This document shows, piece after piece, positions 5,805-15,885 of a stretch of 64,000 nt of DNA (positions are counted from its first letter, which is position 1; every line of letters starts with the position of its first letter). Where the stretch lies: the NCBI GenBank assembly GCA_965217115.1, contig OZ244239.1, forward strand, positions 800,001 through 864,000, in the 5' to 3' direction. The notes below the pieces were generated by a model, which was given only the letters and a program-made list of their open reading frames with translations, made no database searches and had not been told where the DNA came from. The position numbers and the translations under genes were made by a program. Source of the DNA: Bdellovibrionales bacterium. GTDB taxonomy: Bacteria; Bdellovibrionota; Bdellovibrionia; Bdellovibrionales; CAYMLA01.

Positions 5805-6935
5805 ATGTTTAAACTATTCTTAGGAAGCCTATTCCTTTTATTTTCCACTTCAGCACTCGCAAGTAATGGTTGGGTCGCATCTGGTGGAGATCTTATTGAA
5901 GACGCAATGAACCCTTGGTGGATTCAAAATAAAAAAGAGCTCAAGTATTGTATTCGTATTGACTCTAAATCGACTTCTGCCACTAAAAAAGATATCAATT
6001 TTATTACATCCAGAGTTCTTCAAAACTGGCTGAATGAATGGAGTTATTTTTTTAACAACAGAGATAGCTCTTTTGAAATAGGAAGTCAGACATTAATAAA
6101 AGTTGAATGCAGCCAAGAGAATGATCTCGCTTTTTATTTTGGTTGGAATTCTTTAAGCTTAGACAAAAAAAACTATATCCGCCAATCGAGAAACCCTAAA
6201 TCGATAATAGGTCTTGCTGTTCGCACTCACTATGACAGAAAAAAATTAATAGGAAAAGGGTTTATCTTTGTTGGTTCCGATACAGGGCCTGATAAATTTA
6301 CACAGAAAGGATTATACCCACAACCTTGGAGACACAAGGCTCTGCTCACCTCTGTGCTTGCCCATGAACTTGCCCATGTGTTTGGACTTAAACACTCTGA
6401 TCTTTTTCACGGCCTTATGGGTGCGGGTTTTTTGACCATGCTTCTTAAGAAAAAATCTGTGGAGTATATGAAAGTCTTTGGAACTCTAAATGAGTATCAA
6501 GATTTTCCATATTTTAGCGAAAATAAATCTTATAAACTCAAATCTGGTCGGGTGAAAAATGTTTTTGGCAAAGTTAACGTTAAAAACCTCAAAATAGTTC
6601 CCCATCCCCATGATCCATACCGTTTTTCTCTGTATGAAGAGTCTTCTGGTTACGACCTGTTGACCCATACATTAGAACTTACCTCATTGCATAGAACGAT
6701 TCCTTTGGGAGGGTTTTCATTGTATCTAACAGACCAACAGGTCGTTTTCCCCAAGGAAGAGGGGGTGATCCTTATTCCATTGAATTTTTCAGATGAGGGC
6801 CAGGCCATTGTTAAATCAGTTTCTGGTGGAACTCGGAAAAATGTCTATTTAAAGAAAAATTTCGATTCAATCACCTTGCTTAACTATGAAAACGGAAATT
6901 ACCATAAAATTGTCTTTTCCAATCAAAAGCCCTAA
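5805..6935 (+). CDS. secreted zinc metalloprotease (metzincin-type)
   Basis: Signal peptide; HELAHVFGLKH = HExxHxxGxxH followed by GLM Met-turn candidate. Confidence 0.8.
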   Translation: MFKLFLGSLFLLFSTSALASNGWVASGGDLIEDAMNPWWIQNKKELKYCIRIDSKSTSATKKDINFITSRVLQNWLNEWSYFFNNRDSSFEIGSQTLIKVECSQENDLAFYFGWNSLSLDKKNYIRQSRNPKSIIGLAVRTHYDRKKLIGKGFIFVGSDTGPDKFTQKGLYPQPWRHKALLTSVLAHELAHVFGLKHSDLFHGLMGAGFLTMLLKKKSVEYMKVFGTLNEYQDFPYFSENKSYKLKSGRVKNVFGKVNVKNLKIVPHPHDPYRFSLYEESSGYDLLTHTLELTSLHRTIPLGGFSLYLTDQQVVFPKEEGVILIPLNFSDEGQAIVKSVSGGTRKNVYLKKNFDSITLLNYENGNYHKIVFSNQKP

Positions 6936-6945
6936 CTCTCTATGA

Positions 6946-7290
6946 GATTCTTTATGACAAACAATAGTGGAGTCAGTTTTTTTCTGATGACCTTTTTTTT
7001 CTAGAGTCTCTCCCAAAAGAATCCAGCCCTTTTCTTGCTCAAATATTCGTTTGTCACCTTCCATTGCAGAGAAATGCAATGGAAGTCGCCAAGCCAAACT
7101 CGCCGAAAAGAACTGGATTCTTTTGGGAGAGACTCTAGAAAAAAATGCCCTATTCAATCAATGAGTTAATGGATCTCTTTCTATGACTGACCTCCATGTA
7201 TAACAACGCTGTTATCCATGGATAGTTTTAGAAAGAGAGCCCTCAAGATGGGTCTCTTGGGAACAGCTCCACTATTTATCACAAAGAACT
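6946..7290 (+). mobile_element. MITE-like element copy 1 (345 bp)
   Basis: Imperfect terminal inverted repeats GATTCTTTATGACAAACAATAGTGGAG ... CTCCACTATTTATCACAAAGAACT; 8-bp direct repeat CTCTATGA at 6938-6945 and 7291-7298; three homologous copies elsewhere in the window. Confidence 0.88.
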
Positions 7291-8442: not shown

Positions 8443-8474
8443 TTGCAATAAGTATCCCTTTGTGGGATACTTAT
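8443..8474 (+). promoter_or_regulatory. sigma-70-like promoter overlapped by palindromic operator
   Basis: TTGCAA-17-GATACT; perfect 11-bp inverted repeat ATAAGTATCCC-tttgt-GGGATACTTAT at 8448-8474. Confidence 0.65.
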
Positions 8475-8501
8475 GTCTTAGAACCCTATAGGGAAGATGC
8501 C

Positions 8502-8819
8502 ATGAGCACAAAAAAAAATAAAACTCTAGCCAAAGAGGCTATCAGAAAAGTAACAGGACATATCTCGTTCGGTGATATGCTCTGCTCCCATAGAATTAAT
8601 CAAGATATCAGCCAAGTTCAAATGGCGGATAACTTAGGAATCTCCAAGCAAATGCTTTGTAACATCGAAAAAGGACGGAAATTAGTCAGTGTTGAGCGAG
8701 CAGCCTTATTTGCTAAAAAACTAAAAATGCCACCTAAAGTCTTTGCCAAGTACGCACTACAAGATCAACTTATAAGAGCTGGCTTAAAAGGTGAAGTCTC
8801 AATCAACGACGTCGCTTAA
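8502..8819 (+). CDS. XRE-family HTH protein, HigA antitoxin-like
   Basis: SQVQMADNLGISKQMLCNIEKGRK HTH; ATG 8502 preferred over TTG 8460 because the promoter/operator overlaps the latter. Confidence 0.8.
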   Translation: MSTKKNKTLAKEAIRKVTGHISFGDMLCSHRINQDISQVQMADNLGISKQMLCNIEKGRKLVSVERAALFAKKLKMPPKVFAKYALQDQLIRAGLKGEVSINDVA

Positions 8820-8833
8820 ACTCTATTTAACCG

Positions 8834-8920
8834 TGGTGCCTCGAGCGAGAATCGAACTCGCACTCTCATGAAAGAACTGGATTTTGAATCCAACGCGTCT
8901 ACCAATTCCGCCACCGAGGC
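8834..8920 (-). tRNA. tRNA-Leu(CAA), second copy with 3 substitutions
   Basis: 87-nt cloverleaf ending CCA; differs from the 13102-13188 copy by three C>T changes (two give G.U pairs, one lies in the variable loop). Confidence 0.85.
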
Positions 8921-8964
8921 ATTTATGTGGATGCATTATTTCTTTTTCTTTACAGCTTTCTTCT
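8834..8964. repeat. direct repeat of tRNA-Leu plus topA 3' tail (matches 13102-13232)
   Basis: Colinear at offset 4268; includes spacer, topA stop codon and KKAVKKKK* codons. Confidence 0.9.
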
Positions 8965-9178
8965 ATTTACAAATAAGTAATTACAACTCGACTAGATTTA
9001 TCATCTATAGTTTTTCTTGATACTTCATACTTTCTATTTTCAAGTTCCTCTTTACATGGAATACTGTCTTCTTTAAATGAAACCCATAATCCACCTATTG
9101 ATTTATTTTCTAGTTTTTCTTCACATAGTTTTAGAAATTTGTTTGAGCCCCCCCCACTATTTATGTAGAAATAACTTT

Positions 9179-9976
9179 CTATGTTTTTAGATGTTCTCCT
9201 TTTTTAGTATCATATATACAACACTCGCTTTTGTGTTCACTACATATCTTATATCGTTTTTCTTTATGACCTAATAATAACTTCTTGAGAGAATCACCAT
9301 TATAGGTGGGATTAAATAACGTTACAAACTGATTCCATGGCTTATTATCTTCATGGGTGATCCCCTGTACAATTTTTTCTATCTCAGTATCGCTAAAAAT
9401 AGAAATTTTTGTAATCATCTCGTTGAAGCGTTCTGTAACGGCATCATAATTATGACAATTGCCGTAATTATCCTTATTACAGAAATTCGTAATTACTTGT
9501 TGTCTTTCTTGATATTTCTCAAAAATAGACGCCTTCTTTCCTTTATCTGAAATTAGCTTGATGAGTTGCTCTTCTTTCCCTTTGTTTTTTTTATCTTTGA
9601 TAGCTTGTTCAATGCTGCCGAAACCTTCTGGGTCTGTTTCATCAGCACTATAATACAATATGGGAACTCCTTTACCCAAGGCAAAACCAACTTCCTGATT
9701 AGTATATATGCCCCCATAGAAATTACTTGTGAGATACGCAATGAATATATCCATCGTTCCAAGAGACTTAAGAATTTTATCCCTCCATATTTCTGTTGGT
9801 TTAATATTTTCATGTGCTACAAATGTTGAAACGTTTAAAGTATCTAACTGATGGGCAAGTTGAATAACACCACCTCTGTCGCCATCTCGATGTGATATAA
9901 ACACCTTTAGCTCAATCTGTTTATCACCCCAAATATCACTAACATCCTCAGGCTCTATTAATATCACTCTATGCAC
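9179..9976 (-). CDS. TIR-domain protein
   Basis: KVFISH...TFVAHENIKPTEIWRDKILKSLGTMDIFIAYLTSNF...YTNQEVGFALGKGVPIL: bacterial TIR signature with the catalytic Glu position intact. Confidence 0.88.
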   Translation of the reverse strand: MHRVILIEPEDVSDIWGDKQIELKVFISHRDGDRGGVIQLAHQLDTLNVSTFVAHENIKPTEIWRDKILKSLGTMDIFIAYLTSNFYGGIYTNQEVGFALGKGVPILYYSADETDPEGFGSIEQAIKDKKNKGKEEQLIKLISDKGKKASIFEKYQERQQVITNFCNKDNYGNCHNYDAVTERFNEMITKISIFSDTEIEKIVQGITHEDNKPWNQFVTLFNPTYNGDSLKKLLLGHKEKRYKICSEHKSECCIYDTKKGEHLKT

Positions 9977-10401
9977 TCCTAAATTTTGAATAATATGTTT
10001 TATGGCTTGAAGACTAGAATCATTGACTCCATACTCATTTAACTATACTAATTGTATAAGTTCTTCAAGAATTTTTTTAACTAAACGATTATCTTCTATA
10101 CTTATAAAAGTTCTAAATTTTTCACTCCTTAGCATAGAAGCCTCTGAACCATATTTTTTATCAAAATAAAAAAAGTCTAATATGGTTTTTTATTAATTAA
10201 ATTAAGAGAATTCAAAAAAAACACCTCACTTAAAAATGGTTATAATAATGTTTTTGGAAAAACCTTTACTCCTTTTATTCTACACTCCTCAATGATATCA
10301 GTATCTTCATAATTACTGATCACGAGCACGCAATGGTCTGACGAACCTGAAGTTTTACTACCAATACATAAGCTCCACTCAGACCGCAAGTAATTCAAGA
10401 T

Positions 10402-10737
10402 TTGACTGTAAAATTTTTGGAGCTGGAGATTCTCTCCTCTACCTCGGATATTGAGTTAAAGCCTATTATTGAGTTCGATAATACCAAGGCTGCTCTTAAT
10501 TGGTTTGAGAATACAGATACTCCAGTGGCTAATATTATTTTCTTTGCTGACAATGATCTTGGAGAAAGGCAAATGACAGGGCTAGAGCTGATTAAGAGAC
10601 TTGGGATTGGTGTCTTGAGTTATCTTGTGACTGACAGTTATTTTATTGACTGTGTATATAATGATTGTTTGGATAATGGGGTTAGACTTATTCCTAAGCA
10701 ATATATAAATGAATCTAAATTTACAGTTCTAGGCTGA
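10402..10737 (+). pseudogene. truncated receiver (REC)-like domain fragment
   Basis: FFADNDLG..MTGLELIKRL...LVT...IPK matches the C-terminal part of a receiver domain; the N-terminal acidic strand and a good start are missing. Confidence 0.55.
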
Positions 10738-10742
10738 TGTAA

Positions 10743-12461
10743 ATGAAAATTGACGAAATCAGGATAAAAAATTTTAGATCAATAAAAGATGTCAAAATAT
10801 CTATTAAAGACTATACAGCCTTAGTTGGTAAAAATAATGTTGGTAAATCAAACATCCTAAGAGCTTTAAATTCTTTCTTTAATTTTGAATTAGAAAAAGA
10901 CTCTTTTCTTAGAGGAGACCATTATTATTGCAACAAAACAACACCACGAATTGAAATTATTTTTGACAGTGAAGAAAGAACATCCATTCTTCAGAGTATT
11001 ACTACTAATAATAAAATTACAATATCCTTTAAATTCTTACGTAAATATAAAGAGGCTGAATATCTATATAAGAAAGGGAAACAATTTGAGGACTTACTTG
11101 GACAGAAAAAAGTTGCCTTCTTCGAAGCATTTCACTTTGTTTTAATTCCTACTCCTAGAGACCACCAAAAAATTCACGAATTAGAAAATGGCATATTAAA
11201 GAAAATTATTTTAAAAGTTTTACAAAAAAAACAAAAGAATAACTTAAAAAAGCATAGTGACGAGATCAAAAATAAATTTAGACAAATATTTCATGACGTA
11301 GAATCTTTCATTAAATCAAGTTCTTTAATGAATTTAAATTCTAAATTAGATTTTTATAATAACGTAAATATTAGAGATTTTTTATCAGATCAAATAAAGG
11401 TTAATATTGTAGAAAAAGGGAAGACCTTATTACCTAAGGACTGTGGAACAGGAATTCAAAGCCTTTTGTTAATAACGCTTTATAAATACCATGCTGATCT
11501 AAGTGACTCTAATTATTTAATGGCTATTGAGGAGCCTGAAGTAAATTTACACCCACAAGCTCAATTAAATTTGATGACTAATTTAAGATCTCTAATAGAG
11601 GGTAAATGTATACAAATAATTGTTACTACCCATTCACCTCATATTATTGATTCTCTAGAGCATACAAACATTACTTTGTGTCAAAAGTCAAAAAAATCAC
11701 AGAAAATCACAACTGAATGTTATCAACTAGGCTCTGACTATTGGGAGAGAAATAAGCTAATACGAATCAAAAATGATAGTTTTTTTAAGTATAAAAATAG
11801 CGATTTTTTCTTTGCTGACAGAGTTATAGTTTGCGAAGGAATATCTGACTCTGAGGTACTAAAATTTTTAGCAAATCAATCTGGACTAAATCTTTCACTA
11901 AAGGGAATTACAATTTTAACTCTCGGTGGAAAGAATAATTTAAACTATCCACTTTCTCTTGTAAAAGAACTAAAAATCCCATATCTAATCATATTGGATA
12001 AAGATTTTTTTCTTCCTTACAGAGACGAAAATAAATTACAGAAAAGTAGAAATAAAAAGTTTTTCCCTTTGTATGCTCCTGAATTTCACAAAAATAAACT
12101 ATTTCTTATTAAGAAATTAATACCTAATCTTCAGGACAGAGAAAAACTTAAAAAGCTTCTCATATCTAATCACAGTCAAGCCATGACTTTATTACAGAGA
12201 TATTCTATCGTATCGTTTAAATGGAGCCTTGAAGTGGATTTAGTTAATTCCTCTTCTGCTCGGAAAGAGTATCTAGCGCAGTTTAAAATTAAAGATGGCA
12301 CTAACGAATATGAAGAACTTTTAGAAAAAAGGCTCTCTTCTAATAAGGATTGTGAAAAAACAATCTCCGTAATTAAAAAAATTGAGCACTCTAATCTACC
12401 AAATAGCTACAAGAGAATAAAAAAGATTTTCTCACAATACAAAAAATATAATAATTATTAA
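10743..12461 (+). CDS. OLD-family ATP-dependent nuclease (ABC-type ATPase + TOPRIM)
   Basis: IKNFRSI, Walker A GKNNVGKS, signature CGTGIQS, Walker B AIEEPE, TTHSP H-loop, TOPRIM CEGISD and LDKD. Confidence 0.9.
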   Translation: MKIDEIRIKNFRSIKDVKISIKDYTALVGKNNVGKSNILRALNSFFNFELEKDSFLRGDHYYCNKTTPRIEIIFDSEERTSILQSITTNNKITISFKFLRKYKEAEYLYKKGKQFEDLLGQKKVAFFEAFHFVLIPTPRDHQKIHELENGILKKIILKVLQKKQKNNLKKHSDEIKNKFRQIFHDVESFIKSSSLMNLNSKLDFYNNVNIRDFLSDQIKVNIVEKGKTLLPKDCGTGIQSLLLITLYKYHADLSDSNYLMAIEEPEVNLHPQAQLNLMTNLRSLIEGKCIQIIVTTHSPHIIDSLEHTNITLCQKSKKSQKITTECYQLGSDYWERNKLIRIKNDSFFKYKNSDFFFADRVIVCEGISDSEVLKFLANQSGLNLSLKGITILTLGGKNNLNYPLSLVKELKIPYLIILDKDFFLPYRDENKLQKSRNKKFFPLYAPEFHKNKLFLIKKLIPNLQDREKLKKLLISNHSQAMTLLQRYSIVSFKWSLEVDLVNSSSARKEYLAQFKIKDGTNEYEELLEKRLSSNKDCEKTISVIKKIEHSNLPNSYKRIKKIFSQYKKYNNY

Positions 12462-12741
12462 AAAACTTCTGTTCTGCCACTGAAACACCGCCAATTCATG
12501 GGACAAAATCTTTTCAATCATTATAAATACTTAGAAAAACCGTCGTTTCACTCATGGGACGATTCCCCTCTCTAAAATACACAACCATTTAAAAAGCCTC
12601 AATGATTTCAAGTGTCCGACTTTTGGCATTGCTTTAGCGATAGTCAGTCATTGTTAGGGACTTGTCACAGAAGAAAAATGGTTCTAAAAACCCCTGTGAA
12701 TATCCCATAAACTCGCCATCGTATGGGGCGAGGATTTAACT

Positions 12742-13069
12742 GGTTCTTTGTGATAAATAGTGGAACTGTTCCCAAGAGACCCATCTTGAGGGCTCTCTTT
12801 CTAAAACTATCCATGGATAACAGCGTTGTTATACATGGAGGTCAGTCATAGAAAGAGATCCATTGACCCATTGATTGAATACGTCCTTTTTTTCTAGAGT
12901 CTCTCCCAAAAGAATCCAGTTCTTTTCGGCGAGTTCGGCTTGGCGACTTCCATTGCACTTTTCTGCAATGGAAGGTGACAAACGGATGTTTGAGCAAGAA
13001 AAGGGCTGAATTCTTTTGGGAGAGACTCTAGAAAAAAACAGGCTCCACTATTATTTATCATAAAGAATC
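12742..13069 (-). mobile_element. MITE-like element copy 2 (328 bp, inverted)
   Basis: GGTTCTTTGTGATAAATAGTGG ... CCACTATTATTTATCATAAAGAATC; 8-bp direct repeat ATTTAACT at 12734-12741 and 13070-13077. Confidence 0.9.
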
Positions 13070-13101
13070 ATTTAACTCTGGAGGCGAGGGGATTTTAAAT
13101 C

Positions 13102-13188
13102 TGGTGCCTCGGGCGAGAATCGAACTCGCACTCTCGTGAAAGAACTGGATTTTGAATCCAGCGCGTCTACCAATTCCGCCACCGAGGC
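13102..13188 (-). tRNA. tRNA-Leu(CAA)
   Basis: GCCTCGGTGGCGGAATTGGTAGACGCG CTGGA-TTCAAAA-TCCAG, long variable arm, GTTCGA, CCA. Confidence 0.96.
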
Positions 13189-13203
13189 ATCTCTGTGGAT
13201 GCA

Positions 13204-15885
13204 TTATTTCTTTTTCTTTACAGTCTTTTTCTTTACAGTCTTTTTCTTTACAGTTTTCTTCTTTACGGTTTTCTTCTTTACAGCTTTTTTCTTTACAGTT
13301 TTTTTCTTTACGGCTTTTTTCTTTGCAGCGCTTTTTTTGACGCCACCCTTTTCTTCCAACCATTTAACAGCCATTTCCAGTGTTGTCTCATCAGGAGTCA
13401 CTTTCTCCGGCAATGAAGCATTCACCTTGCCACATTTAACATAAGCTCCGTAGGGGCCGTTCATGATATTTACCAATTCATCATTGTCAGGATGCTTACC
13501 CAACTCCTTCAAGGGGGCCGCTCGACCACGGCCCTTTTTAGGTTGGGATAATTTCTCCATCGCATTCTCAAACGTTACCTCAAAAAGATTCTCATTTTTT
13601 GTAACAGAACGAAAGTCTCCATCATGAACAACAAAAGGGCCAAAACGGCCAATACCCACACGCACTGGCTTCCCCGTTTCAGGGTGGTCTCCCAAACTTC
13701 GCGGTAAATGCACCAAAAACTGGGCCTGCTCTGGTGTGATTTCATCCACATTCACACTCGGTGGAATCGCCGTTCTCTTTGGTTTAGCTCCGTCCCCCGC
13801 CGCTTCACCCAACTGCACATAGGGCCCATAACGACCACTGAGAACATAAATAGGTAAATTCGTTTCAGCGTCTTCACAAAAAGCATCGGCCCCATTTATT
13901 TTCTGCTCAATCCACTTGAGTGCCAATTCTGGTTTCACTTCTGCAGGGGGGTGAATATCTGGAATCGATGCACAAACTTCCTCACCCTCTATTTTTGTAC
14001 AAATGTAAGCACCATAGCGACCCACACGCACACTGAATTTTTCTAAGCCTGCCAATTTAATCTCCCGCGCTTCCACGGGATCAATTTTACTCTCCTGATT
14101 TTCAATCGTCGTCTTCAATCCGTCGTCACCAAAATAAATTTTATCAAGATATTTCTTAGATTCTAACTTTCCTGTAGCGACTTCATCTAGTGCTTCTTCC
14201 ATACTCGAAGTGAATTTCAAATCTACATAACGACTCAAGTAATCTGTCATTAATTTACTCACAACAAGGGCCGTGAACGTAGGAACTAAAGCGTTCCCCG
14301 TCTTACGCACATACCCTCGATCCATAACCGTACCAATAATACTCGCGTAAGTTGAAGGGCGACCTATGCCCTCCTTCTCCATCGTTTGAACCAAACTCGC
14401 TTCTGTGTATCGAGCGGGCGGTTTGGTCTCATGCTCCTTGCTCTCGGTTTTTTTGCAATCAATCACATCTCTCTTTTTTAACTGAGGTAAACGAACTTCT
14501 CGATTCTGCAAACCCGCCTCTGGATCATCATGACCCTCAACATAAGCTCGCAAAAAACCAGGGAATTCAATGGTCATACCCGAGGATGCAAAAACCGCTT
14601 TCTCCACCTGAATGCGAACACTCACCTGCTTCTGTCTGGCATCAGCCATTTGACTGGCCACTGTTCTCTTCCATATCAAATCATAAAGTTTAAACTGCAT
14701 CCCATCTAGACCTGTCTCATCTGGAGAAACAAAATTTTCCCCCGCTGGACGAATGGCTTCATGGGCCTCTTGAGCCCCCTTGGCCTTCTTCTTGTGATAA
14801 GTTCTCGGCTCACTAGGTAAATAATCTTTGCCATATTTTTTCTCAATACAATATCTTGCCGCAGTTATGGCCTGAGTGGAAAGAAACGTCGAATCCGTTC
14901 TCATGTAAGTGATCAAACCATTTTCATAAAGCTTCTGAGCCGCACGCATAGTGTCGCGAGACCCTAAACCTAATTTCCTATTGGCCTCCTGTTGCAAAGT
15001 CGACGTAATAAATGGAGCCATTGGCCGCCTCGTCACAGGTTTCTCTTCCACAGACGTCACTAACCAATCTTGAGTTTTAACATCACTTTCAATTTTTTTT
15101 ACTTTACTGCCGTCTAATAAGAGAACGTCTTTACCTTTAAGCAACTGCCCTGTGGTCCCATCAAAATCCTTACCCACAGCTATTTTCTTATCCTGATAAC
15201 TCATTAAACGACTTTCAAAATTAATACCGCTTTTTTCTAATTGAGCCGTTAGCCCCCAGTACTTAGATCTCTTAAAACGAATGCGTTCATGCTCTTTTTC
15301 AGAAATCAAACAAACTGCCACCGATTGCACTCGCCCCGCCGACAAACCATAGGCCACCTTCTTCCATATCAACGGTGACAAAGTATAACCCACAAGGCGA
15401 TCCAAGACACGGCGAGCTTCCTGCGCGCGAACAAGATTCAAATCAATCTCACGGCCATGACTCAAAGCATGCTCGATAGCCTCCTTAGTGATCTCATGGA
15501 ACACCATCCTCTTAACTGGCACTTTAGGCTTAAGGACCTCAAGCAAATGCCAGCTAATACTCTCTCCCTCTCTATCATCATCGGTCGCGAGAATCAGTTC
15601 ATCTGCTTGCGATAGTTTTTCCCTTAAAACTTTAACAATTTTCGCCTTATTTTTGGGGATACAATAGATAGGTTCAAATTCCTTCTCCACATTAACACCC
15701 AGTGTGGCCCATTTCTCTTTTTTGTATTTTACAGGAATGTCCTTAGCTGATTGTGGGAGGTCCCGCACGTGACCCATACAAGAGTCCACAACAAAGTTCT
15801 TGCTTCCCAAGAATTTGCGAATCGTTTTTGCCTTTGTCGGGGATTCGACAATAACAAATGTTTTTCCACCTAGTGCTTTAGCCAT
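13204..15885 (-). CDS. topA: DNA topoisomerase I
   Basis: VIVESPTKAKTI, ATDDDREGE, SAGRVQS, LITYMRTDS, AQEAHEAIRP; C-terminal GRYGPY repeats and Lys-rich tail. Confidence 0.97.
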   Translation of the reverse strand: MAKALGGKTFVIVESPTKAKTIRKFLGSKNFVVDSCMGHVRDLPQSAKDIPVKYKKEKWATLGVNVEKEFEPIYCIPKNKAKIVKVLREKLSQADELILATDDDREGESISWHLLEVLKPKVPVKRMVFHEITKEAIEHALSHGREIDLNLVRAQEARRVLDRLVGYTLSPLIWKKVAYGLSAGRVQSVAVCLISEKEHERIRFKRSKYWGLTAQLEKSGINFESRLMSYQDKKIAVGKDFDGTTGQLLKGKDVLLLDGSKVKKIESDVKTQDWLVTSVEEKPVTRRPMAPFITSTLQQEANRKLGLGSRDTMRAAQKLYENGLITYMRTDSTFLSTQAITAARYCIEKKYGKDYLPSEPRTYHKKKAKGAQEAHEAIRPAGENFVSPDETGLDGMQFKLYDLIWKRTVASQMADARQKQVSVRIQVEKAVFASSGMTIEFPGFLRAYVEGHDDPEAGLQNREVRLPQLKKRDVIDCKKTESKEHETKPPARYTEASLVQTMEKEGIGRPSTYASIIGTVMDRGYVRKTGNALVPTFTALVVSKLMTDYLSRYVDLKFTSSMEEALDEVATGKLESKKYLDKIYFGDDGLKTTIENQESKIDPVEAREIKLAGLEKFSVRVGRYGAYICTKIEGEEVCASIPDIHPPAEVKPELALKWIEQKINGADAFCEDAETNLPIYVLSGRYGPYVQLGEAAGDGAKPKRTAIPPSVNVDEITPEQAQFLVHLPRSLGDHPETGKPVRVGIGRFGPFVVHDGDFRSVTKNENLFEVTFENAMEKLSQPKKGRGRAAPLKELGKHPDNDELVNIMNGPYGAYVKCGKVNASLPEKVTPDETTLEMAVKWLEEKGGVKKSAAKKKAVKKKTVKKKAVKKKTVKKKTVKKKTVKKKTVKKKK
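13207..13338 (-). repeat. 15-bp tandem repeat encoding KKK(T/A)V in the topA tail
   Basis: About seven units of TTTACAGTCTTTTTC-like 15-mers. Confidence 0.9.

What the first reader, a model, noticed from the sequence alone, without database searches (positions are those of the whole stretch)
9179..12461. Candidate non-canonical anti-phage locus: TIR protein plus stand-alone OLD nuclease in a tRNA island
Seen: the only intact-looking cargo of the island is a TIR gene with its catalytic Glu and a divergently transcribed ABC-ATPase-TOPRIM nuclease with intact motifs. Known: TIRs act as NADases or signal producers in Thoeris, CBASS, Pycsar and others; OLD nucleases act alone (P2 Old), with a UvrD helicase (Gabija) or with retrons. 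None of those partners (ThsA, cyclase, GajB, RT) is in the island. Inference: either a new TIR-OLD pairing or two independent single-gene defences collected at a hotspot. Divergent orientation with a REC relic between them leaves the second option open.
Basis: partly seen in the sequence, partly recalled or inferred. Interest (0 to 1): 0.75.

Follow-up and report, generated by a model that had tools for sequence, protein, structure and literature searches.

The report
Lone OLD nuclease beside gene relics
A small foreign DNA islet between two copies of a leucine tRNA gene holds one intact stand-alone OLD-type defence nuclease, while the neighbouring TIR gene and receiver-domain gene are truncated leftovers, so this is an ordinary decayed defence islet and not a new two-gene system.

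Summary
Both genes exist at the stated coordinates, but they are not equally intact. The OLD gene (10743-12461, +, 572 aa) is full length, with ABC-ATPase and TOPRIM motifs present. Its best matches are PADLOC 'Old' and the Class 1 OLD structure 6p74, and it has no helicase, RT or split partner, so it is Class 1 by gene context. The TIR ORF (9179-9976, -) keeps its TIR core and catalytic Glu95. However, it is the 3' two-thirds of a gene from a ~365-aa family (N-terminal domain, TIR, C-terminal domain). Remains of the N-terminal domain lie upstream in frame, cut by a TAG (10043-10045) and TAATAA (10190-10195). About 35 codons have no detectable counterpart. The 111-aa ORF abutting OLD is the receiver-like tail of a ~555-aa hybrid histidine kinase. 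One deletion between two divergent genes would explain both truncations.

Co-occurrence does not support a pairing:
- A true OLD lies within 10 kb in 2 of 57 TIR-family loci, and is never adjacent.
- 0 of 6 close OLD loci have a TIR neighbour.
- 1 of 80 broader OLD loci has an adjacent, unrelated TIR, and 3 plasmid relatives of that OLD lack one.

Verdict: a new member of a known kind, of low interest.

The parts
8826..8964 (-). Direct-repeat copy 1: tRNA-Leu(CAA) at 8834-8920 plus a fragment of about 35-44 nt of the topA 3' end (reads ..KKAVKKKK*). This is the left border of the islet.
   Evidence: ARAGORN; Rfam tRNA 55.7 bits; 139-nt repeat of 92% identity; pairwise alignment.
9179..9976 (-). 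Open 265-aa TIR ORF (262 aa if started at the second GTG, 9967, which has AGGAG 8 nt upstream). It holds a TIR domain (residues ~24-125) and the family C-terminal domain, and lacks the family's N-terminal domain. Catalytic-type Glu95 is at 9694-9692.
   Evidence: Pfam TIR_2 2.9e-9; alignment A1 invariant columns; motif coordinates. It departs from consensus at 7 of 40 conserved family columns, tied second-highest of 84 sequences, where the median is 1.
9977..10195 (-). Decayed 5' part of the same TIR-family gene. It holds N-terminal-domain homology in frame with the ORF, broken by TAG (10043-10045) and ended upstream by TAATAA (10190-10195). About 35 N-terminal codons have no counterpart.
   Evidence: Translation; tblastn of the paralogue, residues 36-307 to window 10189-9275, E 4e-45; codons checked.
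10402..10737 (+). A 111-aa ORF that is the receiver-like C-terminal tail of a ~555-aa hybrid histidine kinase. It keeps the D50, T77 and K99 positions but lacks strand 1 with its acidic pair. The same frame upstream (about 10285-10401) carries three stops. It ends 5 nt before the OLD start codon.
   Evidence: phmmer against 1.84 billion representatives: 69 hits; best non-self P0150, 557 aa, 44% identity, aligned to its residues 456-554. HATPase_c and HisKA in 9 of 10 homologues scanned. Alignment A4. + strand translation. No kinase remains upstream by tblastn.
10743..12461 (+). Intact OLD-family nuclease of 572 aa: an ABC ATPase (Walker A 10827-10850, signature 11442-11453, Walker B 11529-11540, H-loop 11625-11636) and a TOPRIM domain (CEG 11832-11840, DKD 11997-12005), followed by a conserved C-terminal region.
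   Evidence: Pfam; PADLOC Old 2e-50; PDB 6p74 1.3e-23. Homologues of 568-578 aa match full length at up to 45% identity. 43 invariant columns of A2 are all kept. Coordinates.
12880..13045 (.). Long-hairpin dispersed repeat (MITE-like), not part of any gene. It fills most of the non-coding gap between OLD and the second tRNA.
   Evidence: Inverted repeat of 41-nt arms, 93% complementary. 84 matches counting both strands (about 42 places) in the 2.17-Mb genome. Only sub-threshold microRNA-hairpin hits in Rfam.
13094..13232 (-). Direct-repeat copy 2: tRNA-Leu(CAA) at 13102-13188 next to the real 3' end of topA (13204-15885). This is the right border of the islet.

Best explanation
The 4.1-kb low-G+C segment between two tRNA-Leu(CAA) copies is a decayed, horizontally acquired defence islet, and only one gene in it is still whole.

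That gene encodes a stand-alone (Class 1 by gene context) OLD-family nuclease. By analogy with P2 Old and Vibrio cholerae Vc OLD, it most likely acts alone. The inferred mechanism is an ABC-ATPase-controlled TOPRIM nuclease that nicks or cuts DNA during phage infection and so blocks phage genome replication.

The TIR ORF and the 111-aa ORF are the 3' parts of two divergently transcribed genes: a ~365-aa TIR-family gene and a ~555-aa hybrid histidine kinase. Both lost their 5' ends, most simply through one deletion that removed the shared upstream region. The TIR remnant then gained a further stop codon.

Shown here: the gene anatomy, the truncations, the family assignments and the lack of conserved co-occurrence. 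Inferred: the deletion scenario, that the OLD gene is expressed, its nuclease mechanism and its role in defence.
For: OLD is intact and of the single-gene type.
- Pfam finds AAA_15, AAA_21 and OLD-like_TOPRIM.
- The best PADLOC model is 'Old' at 2e-50, ahead of AriA and GajA.
- The best PDB match is the Class 1 Thermus scotoductus OLD 6p74 at 1.3e-23, against GajA at 6.6e-14. P2 Old shares 27% identity, E 3e-6.
- All 43 invariant columns of a 25-sequence alignment are kept.
- No GajB, RT or second TIR remains were found in 8900-13200: tblastn gave nothing below E 0.39.
- Neighbours of the 6 close relatives vary (RT, restriction-modification, PurK, GmrSD, IS21, none), as expected for a gene that works alone.
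- The class definitions come from the introduction of PMC12392090. Its abstract and section headings report that Vc OLD is a nickase, blocks phage replication and needs its ATPase and nuclease sites.

The TIR gene is a relic.

The 111-aa ORF is a kinase tail.

No pairing is seen.
- 4 of 57 TIR-family loci have an ORF matching the OLD profile within 10 kb. Only 2 of these carry TOPRIM: L055, 1.7 kb away with SieB and another ORF between, and L057, more than 6 kb away.
- Among 167 flanking ORFs, the largest neighbour cluster has 4 members.

Foreign origin.
- The islet has 31.6% G+C against 39.6% for the genome.
- An OLD homologue at E <= 1e-30 was found in 1 of 401 genomes of the phylum, the window's own.
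- The TIR family was found in 1 of 41 relatives, again the window's own genome.
Against: - The TIR ORF stays open for 262-265 codons and keeps every invariant core residue. It also has an AGGAG 8 nt before its second GTG. A truncated product could therefore still be made and be active.
- NTD-less ORFs with no detectable upstream remnant occur in 3 of 57 family loci: L030, L039 and L049.
- No sigma-70-like site was found on the + strand between 9451 and 10989, so the OLD promoter is unidentified. It may have gone with the deleted kinase 5' end. The scan is crude: 12 sites found against 18.8 expected.
- The same genome has a second islet where the intact TIR paralogue and another OLD-like ABC ATPase lie 9.5 kb apart.
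- One metagenome contig (L104) has a TIR gene 35 nt downstream of an OLD gene.
Confidence: 0.72

Rival explanations
1. Two independent single-gene defences, both still working. The NTD-less TIR product (262 aa) is expressed and acts as an NAD+-consuming enzyme on its own, beside the stand-alone OLD nuclease.
For: - The ORF is open and all invariant TIR residues, including Glu95, are kept.
- An SD-like AGGAG lies 8 nt before the second GTG, and the protein collection holds a 262-aa product called from the window's own genome (longest contig 2,170,531 bases).
- The family has no conserved neighbour, so full-length members probably work alone.
- 3 of 57 loci have NTD-less ORFs.
Against: - The N-terminal domain is the rule in the family: 43 of 57 ORFs are 320 aa or more, and 36 of 38 motif starts lie at residue 90 or later.
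- Here that domain is visibly broken by stops.
- The remnant departs from consensus at 7 of 40 conserved columns, tied second-highest of 84 sequences against a median of 1. This fits relaxed constraint.
- A sensor-less TIR NADase would be expected to be either inert or toxic. This last point is inference.
Confidence: 0.12
2. The whole islet is dead cargo. The OLD gene lost its promoter with the deletion that removed the kinase 5' end, is silent, and is merely not yet decayed.
For: - The kinase-tail stop lies only 5 nt before the OLD start, which suggests former co-transcription.
- No promoter-like site was found on the + strand upstream of OLD within the relic region.
- Both neighbours are relics.
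- No integrase remains in the islet.
Against: - The OLD frame is open over 572 codons in a 28-30% G+C stretch where chance stops are frequent. It keeps all 43 invariant columns, and its length matches its homologues.
- The consensus promoter scan is weak evidence in an organism whose promoters are unknown.
Confidence: 0.11
3. A real, new TIR-OLD two-gene system. The short TIR protein senses or signals, and the OLD nuclease is its effector, or the reverse.
For: - The two genes lie in a divergent arrangement within about 770 nt.
- One contig (L104) has an OLD gene followed after 35 nt by a TIR gene.
- The same genome has a second islet that holds both the TIR paralogue and an OLD-like ATPase.
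Against: - The TIR gene is truncated and carries stops.
- The kinase relic lies between the two genes.
- 0 of 57 TIR-family loci have an adjacent OLD, and 0 of 6 close OLD loci have a TIR.
- The L104 TIR belongs to another subfamily (PADLOC PDC-S66, 6.9e-30). The 3 plasmid relatives of the L104 OLD that were inspected (37-42% identity) have no annotated TIR neighbour.
- In the second islet the two genes are 9.5 kb apart, with a complete Hachiman system between them.
- No fusion protein was found.
- The main text of a systematic TIR-system survey does not contain the words TOPRIM, OLD or ABC ATPase. Its supplements could not be seen.
Confidence: 0.04

Closest known systems
Class 1 OLD-family nucleases (P2 Old; Thermus scotoductus OLD, PDB 6p74; Vibrio cholerae Vc OLD)
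   Same: [quoted passage not shown]
- Best PADLOC model 'Old' and best PDB match 6p74.
- Catalytic motifs present.
   Different: - Only distantly related in sequence: 27% identity to P2 Old over residues 235-423, and the 6p74 match covers residues 219-438 only.
- It belongs to a clade of ~570-aa proteins with its own conserved C-terminal region (L496, E497, D499, K535). The nearest relative shares 45% identity.
- No NCBIfam model is reached above its cut-off.
- Activity was not tested.
Gabija (GajA + GajB; Class 2 OLD)
   Same: GajA models and structures match the ATPase-TOPRIM part: PADLOC GajA 2.6e-40 and PDB 8jq9 6.6e-14 over residues 1-422.
   Different: There is no UvrD-like gene downstream. 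The 632 nt after the stop are non-coding and hold a hairpin repeat, and tblastn with three GajB-like proteins found nothing below E 0.39.
Thoeris ThsB and other bacterial TIR proteins (AbTIR, PDB 7uwg / 8g83)
   Same: - TIR_2 domain with the conserved Glu.
- Weak matches to ThsB1 (2e-4), NCBIfam ThcB4 (28.9 bits against a cut-off of 220) and AbTIR (8e-5 with the family profile).
   Different: - No adjacent effector gene.
- Scores lie far below the family cut-offs.
- The gene belongs to a separate ~365-aa family (N-terminal domain, TIR, C-terminal domain) with no conserved neighbour, and it is truncated here.
Hybrid histidine kinases with a C-terminal receiver-like tail (~550 aa; HisKA + HATPase_c)
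   Same: The 111-aa ORF aligns to the last ~100 residues of these proteins at 44% identity, E 2.4e-19, and keeps the D, T and K positions.
   Different: The kinase part and receiver strand 1 are missing. Pfam Response_reg does not reach significance on the ORF itself; the only weak hit is cREC_REC at 0.13.

Membership tests
OLD-family nuclease, Class 1 | N-terminal ABC ATPase with Walker A, signature, Walker B and H-loop | tested here: met
   Pfam AAA_15 1.2e-38 and AAA_21 3.5e-17. GKNNVGKS 29-36, CGTG 234-237, EEPE 263-266, TTHS 295-298, all in invariant columns of A2.
OLD-family nuclease, Class 1 | C-terminal TOPRIM domain with a catalytic Glu and DxD, in the same polypeptide | tested here: met
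   Pfam OLD-like_TOPRIM 7.1e-16 over residues 356-421. E365 is nearly invariant; D419 and D421 are invariant.
OLD-family nuclease, Class 1 | Single-gene system: no adjacent UvrD-like helicase (Class 2), no RT or ncRNA (Class 3), not split into AriA and AriB (Class 4). Definition from the introduction of PMC12392090. | tested here: met
   The ORF list for the islet shows no such genes. tblastn with GajB-like and RT proteins found nothing below E 0.39. Rfam finds only the two tRNAs above threshold.
OLD-family nuclease, Class 1 | ATP-dependent or ATP-regulated DNA nicking or cleavage, and phage protection | not testable with these tools
   This needs biochemistry and phage challenge.
Gabija | GajB (UvrD-like helicase) encoded next to GajA | tested here: not met
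Thoeris (any type) | A TIR protein (ThsB) encoded next to a signal-responsive effector (ThsA, or ThsC to ThsL) | tested here: not met
   The islet holds no effector-like ORF. PADLOC ThsB1 reaches only 2e-4. The single SIR2_2 gene of the genome lies about 1.3 Mb away.
TIR-domain NADase or signal producer | TIR fold with the conserved catalytic Glu | tested here: met
   Pfam TIR_2 at 37.9 bits, above the 28-bit cut-off. Q94-E95 is invariant in 17 sequences and at frequency 1.0 in 84 sequences.
The ~365-aa TIR family (N-terminal domain, TIR, C-terminal domain) to which the ORF belongs | Full-length architecture with an N-terminal domain of ~120-145 aa | tested here: not met
   The N-terminal domain is absent from the ORF, and its remnant upstream is broken by stops.
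Response-regulator receiver (REC) domain | Complete (beta-alpha)5 unit with the acidic pair after strand 1, the phospho-acceptor Asp, and the Thr and Lys | tested here: not met
   The D50, T77 and K99 positions are present, but strand 1 with its 'DD' is absent from the ORF. Three stops lie in the upstream frame.

The most novel reading that the evidence does not exclude
The NTD-less TIR product and the OLD nuclease, possibly with the small receiver-tail protein that abuts OLD, form a working module that arose by domain loss. In that case it would be a TIR-linked OLD system outside Classes 1-4.
Probability: 0.04. Interest if true: 0.6.

Novelty: new member of a known kind. Interest (0 to 1): 0.18.

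Why it matters
Little turns on this locus itself. It adds a divergent stand-alone OLD nuclease (45% identity to its nearest relative) in a lineage where no close homologue was found in 400 other genomes of the phylum. It also shows how a defence islet decays.

It is a useful caution: an open TIR ORF with its catalytic Glu can still be a gene fragment.

Two side results may be worth more than the finding:
- The ~365-aa TIR family has variable N-terminal domains and no conserved partner, and no PADLOC or NCBIfam model reaches it at a convincing score. It looks like an uncharacterised single-gene defence candidate. An intact copy lies next to a complete Hachiman system in this genome.
- One metagenome contig carries a tight OLD-TIR gene pair that could be tested.

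Tried and rejected
- **RNA evidence.** No RNA holder was listed. The four runs laid are contigs from one sample and say nothing on expression.
- **Ancestral state of the site.** The left core gene and topA are unlinked in 12 order-level relatives. No tRNA follows topA in the 4 relatives checked. The original arrangement and the mode of insertion stay open.
- **Kinase remains upstream of the 111-aa ORF.** None was found by tblastn at E <= 1e-3.
- **A kinase-OLD pairing.** Kinase-like hits in OLD loci L072 and L139 lie 5.7 kb or more from the OLD gene.
- **Context of the closest relatives.** P0030, P0031 and the 67-aa relative P0151 of the 111-aa ORF sit on three different contigs. The look-up by encoding contig is closed, so their neighbours are unknown.
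- **Phage and plasmid records.** The TIR paralogue has no match in phages. OLD has no match in plasmids at 1e-20 and only distant partial matches in phages.
- **Fused TIR-OLD proteins.** One longer relative was found, without a TIR domain. The tool itself calls this weak evidence.
- **REC-like ORFs on the minus strand at 10240-10553.** No family match. They are read as antisense artefacts of the + strand relic.
- **Not run.** No complex prediction was run, because the report does not claim that the proteins bind. No structure prediction was run, because the sequence evidence sufficed.
Full report
**What is there**

The window lies in a 2.17-Mb single-contig genome. Two tRNA-Leu(CAA) genes, at 8834-8920 and 13102-13188 on the minus strand, are the only tRNA-Leu(CAA) genes among the genome's 37 tRNAs. 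Each sits inside a 139-nt direct repeat of 92% identity. The repeat runs past the 5' side of the tRNA into the last codons of topA, so copy 1 carries a topA 3' fragment.

The 4129 nt between the repeats have 31.6% G+C, against 39.6% for the genome (profile). The segment holds three ORFs of note:
- 9179-9976 on the minus strand, 265 aa;
- 10402-10737 on the plus strand, 111 aa;
- 10743-12461 on the plus strand, 572 aa.

There is no integrase. The 632 nt after the last ORF are non-coding. They hold a ~160-nt hairpin repeat with 84 matches counting both strands, about 42 places, in the genome.

**The OLD gene is intact**

- Pfam gives AAA_15 1.2e-38, AAA_21 3.5e-17, OLD-like_TOPRIM 7.1e-16 and DUF2813 1.3e-12.
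- The best PADLOC model is 'Old' at 2e-50, followed by AriA and many GajA models.
- 788 proteins match at E <= 1e-3 among 8000 scored candidates. The best share 44-45% identity over 98% of the query and are 568-570 aa long.
- In an alignment of 25 sequences, 43 columns are invariant. They include Walker A G29/K35, the signature, E264-P265-E266, H297, D419 and D421 (coordinates).
- The closest solved structure is the Class 1 Thermus scotoductus OLD 6p74 (1.3e-23). GajA follows at 6.6e-14.
- P2 Old matches at 27% identity over residues 235-423.
- No NCBIfam model is reached above its cut-off.

**The TIR gene is a fragment**

Pfam TIR_2 passes its cut-off (37.9 against 28 bits), and Q94-E95 in TNQEVG is invariant in the family. 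The family, however, is longer.
- 24 of 27 non-self homologues are 336-380 aa.
- 43 of 57 loci from species-representative genomes carry ORFs of 320 aa or more.
- The first TIR strand starts at a median residue 142, and at residue 90 or later in 36 of the 38 ORFs where the strict motif was found. It starts at residue 26 here.
- The genome's own paralogue (362 aa, 51% identical over the TIR) aligns from its residue 36 to window 10189. From there the alignment runs in frame through a TAG at 10043-10045 into the ORF (E 4e-45).
- TAATAA lies just upstream at 10190-10195, and the first ~35 codons have no counterpart.
- The remnant departs from consensus at 7 of 40 conserved family columns. That is tied second-highest of 84 non-identical sequences, where the median is 1 and the paralogue scores 2.

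Points that run against calling it dead:
- The ORF is open and its core residues are kept.
- An AGGAG lies 8 nt before the second GTG.
- 3 of 57 family loci have NTD-less ORFs with no detectable remnant upstream.

**The 111-aa ORF is a kinase tail**

phmmer against 1.84 billion representatives gave 69 hits. The best non-self hit, P0150 (557 aa, 44% identity, 2.4e-19), aligns at its residues 456-554. Of 10 homologues scanned, 9 carry HATPase_c and some also carry HisKA.

An alignment with 14 shorter relatives shows the receiver pattern: strand 1 with its acidic residues, then Asp, Thr and Lys. The window ORF keeps D50, T77 and K99 but lacks strand 1. The upstream frame has three stops. No kinase remains were found.

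So both genes that face away from each other lack their 5' ends, and the two homology regions end less than 220 nt apart (10189 and 10402). One deletion across a shared upstream region is the simplest account. This is inference.

**Do the two families travel together?**

From the TIR side (57 loci, 10-kb flanks where the contig allowed):
- 4 loci have an ORF matching the OLD profile.
- Only 2 of these carry TOPRIM. L055 is 1.7 kb away, with a SieB-like gene and another ORF between, inside a type I restriction cluster. L057 is more than 6 kb away.
- The other two are ATPases without TOPRIM.
- Among 167 flanking ORFs, the largest cluster has 4 members (HsdM). The neighbours range from housekeeping genes to restriction systems, Shedu, an RT and a phage tail gene.

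From the OLD side (80 metagenome loci):
- 6 are full-length close relatives at 31-37% identity. Their neighbours are an RT, restriction-modification genes, PurK, GmrSD, IS21 or nothing, so 0 of 6 have a TIR.
- Of the 74 more distant loci, I scanned 76 ORFs from 52 of them against Pfam (each at least 110 aa and within 400 nt of the OLD gene). Many sit in restriction-modification operons, and 3 have a UvrD gene downstream, which is the Gabija arrangement.
- One locus, L104, has a real TIR gene 35 nt downstream of a 579-aa OLD.
- That TIR belongs to another subfamily (PADLOC PDC-S66, 6.9e-30).
- Three plasmid relatives of the L104 OLD (37-42% identity) have no annotated TIR neighbour.

Other checks:
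- No TIR-OLD fusion appeared among longer relatives (weak evidence).
- The main text of a systematic survey of TIR systems (bioRxiv 10.64898/2025.12.03.692087, passages seen) never uses the words TOPRIM, OLD or ABC ATPase. Its supplements are closed.
- None listed a paper that describes a TIR-OLD system.

**Mechanism**

The introduction of PMC12392090 defines four OLD classes:
- Class 1: a single gene.
- Class 2: with GajB.
- Class 3: with a retron RT.
- Class 4: PARIS, split into two genes.

[quoted passage not shown] By gene context and motifs the window's protein fits Class 1, and I infer the same mode of action for it. Whether it is expressed is open. No promoter-like site was found directly upstream, and no RNA data exist.

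**Origin**

No OLD homologue at E <= 1e-30 was found in 400 other genomes of the phylum. The TIR family was found in none of 40 relatives. Together with the low G+C, this points to horizontal acquisition. How the segment came to lie between two full tRNA copies is not resolved.

**Verdict**

The pairing hypothesis is not supported. What remains is a divergent member of the stand-alone OLD nucleases beside two gene relics.

Noticed in passing
G000:C1:447000-463000 (locus L152), outside the window: A second defence islet lies next to tRNA-Leu(GAG) (447132-447218). It holds the intact 362-aa TIR paralogue, then a complete Hachiman system (PADLOC HamA1 1.5e-104; HamB1 E 0, 1268 bits). A 575-aa OLD-like ABC ATPase follows 9.5 kb further on (AriA 6.6e-32, Old 3e-28, no TOPRIM hit), with an unassigned 287-aa ORF after it.
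   Followed up: partly
Window 6994-7145 and 12880-13045; about 42 places in the genome: A ~160-nt dispersed hairpin repeat (41-nt arms, 93% complementary; copies 90-97% identical), MITE-like. It yields spurious ORFs such as 6867-7157(-). In Rfam it matches only plant microRNA hairpin models, below their thresholds.
   Followed up: partly
Loci L011-L067 and proteins P0002-P0028: The ~365-aa TIR family has interchangeable N-terminal domains (AbiJ_NTD3 in P0005, 1.3e-36; other types elsewhere) and a shared C-terminal domain that weakly matches the end of PADLOC PD-T7-3 (1.6e-5 in P0003). It has no conserved neighbour and often sits among restriction systems, Shedu or prophage genes. It looks like an uncharacterised stand-alone TIR defence candidate.
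   Followed up: partly
L104:1460-3944 (metagenome contig): A 579-aa OLD gene is followed after 35 nt, on the same strand, by a strong TIR_2 gene (5.5e-34) that runs off the contig end. This is a possible OLD-TIR operon. It was not seen next to the 3 plasmid relatives of this OLD that I inspected.
   Followed up: partly
L068:1-3074 (metagenome contig): One of the 6 close relatives of the window's OLD has a reverse-transcriptase gene (RVT_1, 6.6e-12) 213 nt upstream on the same strand. This clade may therefore also occur in a retron-like (Class 3) context.
   Followed up: no
Window 13204-13340 (3' end of topA): topA ends in a lysine-rich tail encoded by eight 15-nt tandem units (KKTVK repeats). 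Part of this tail is duplicated next to tRNA copy 1.
   Followed up: no
Window 8460-8819 (+): A 119-aa HTH_3 (XRE-type) gene lies directly beside tRNA copy 1 (Pfam 7e-8; PADLOC HTH_VI 1e-10). The 4.3-8.8 kb stretch to its left also has lowered G+C (36-39%) and ORFs with no family match, so it may be an older island.
   Followed up: partly
G000:C1:2130260-2130865 (-): The genome's only SIR2_2-domain gene (387-aa frame, 1.7e-14) lies 1.3 Mb from both TIR genes.
   Followed up: no
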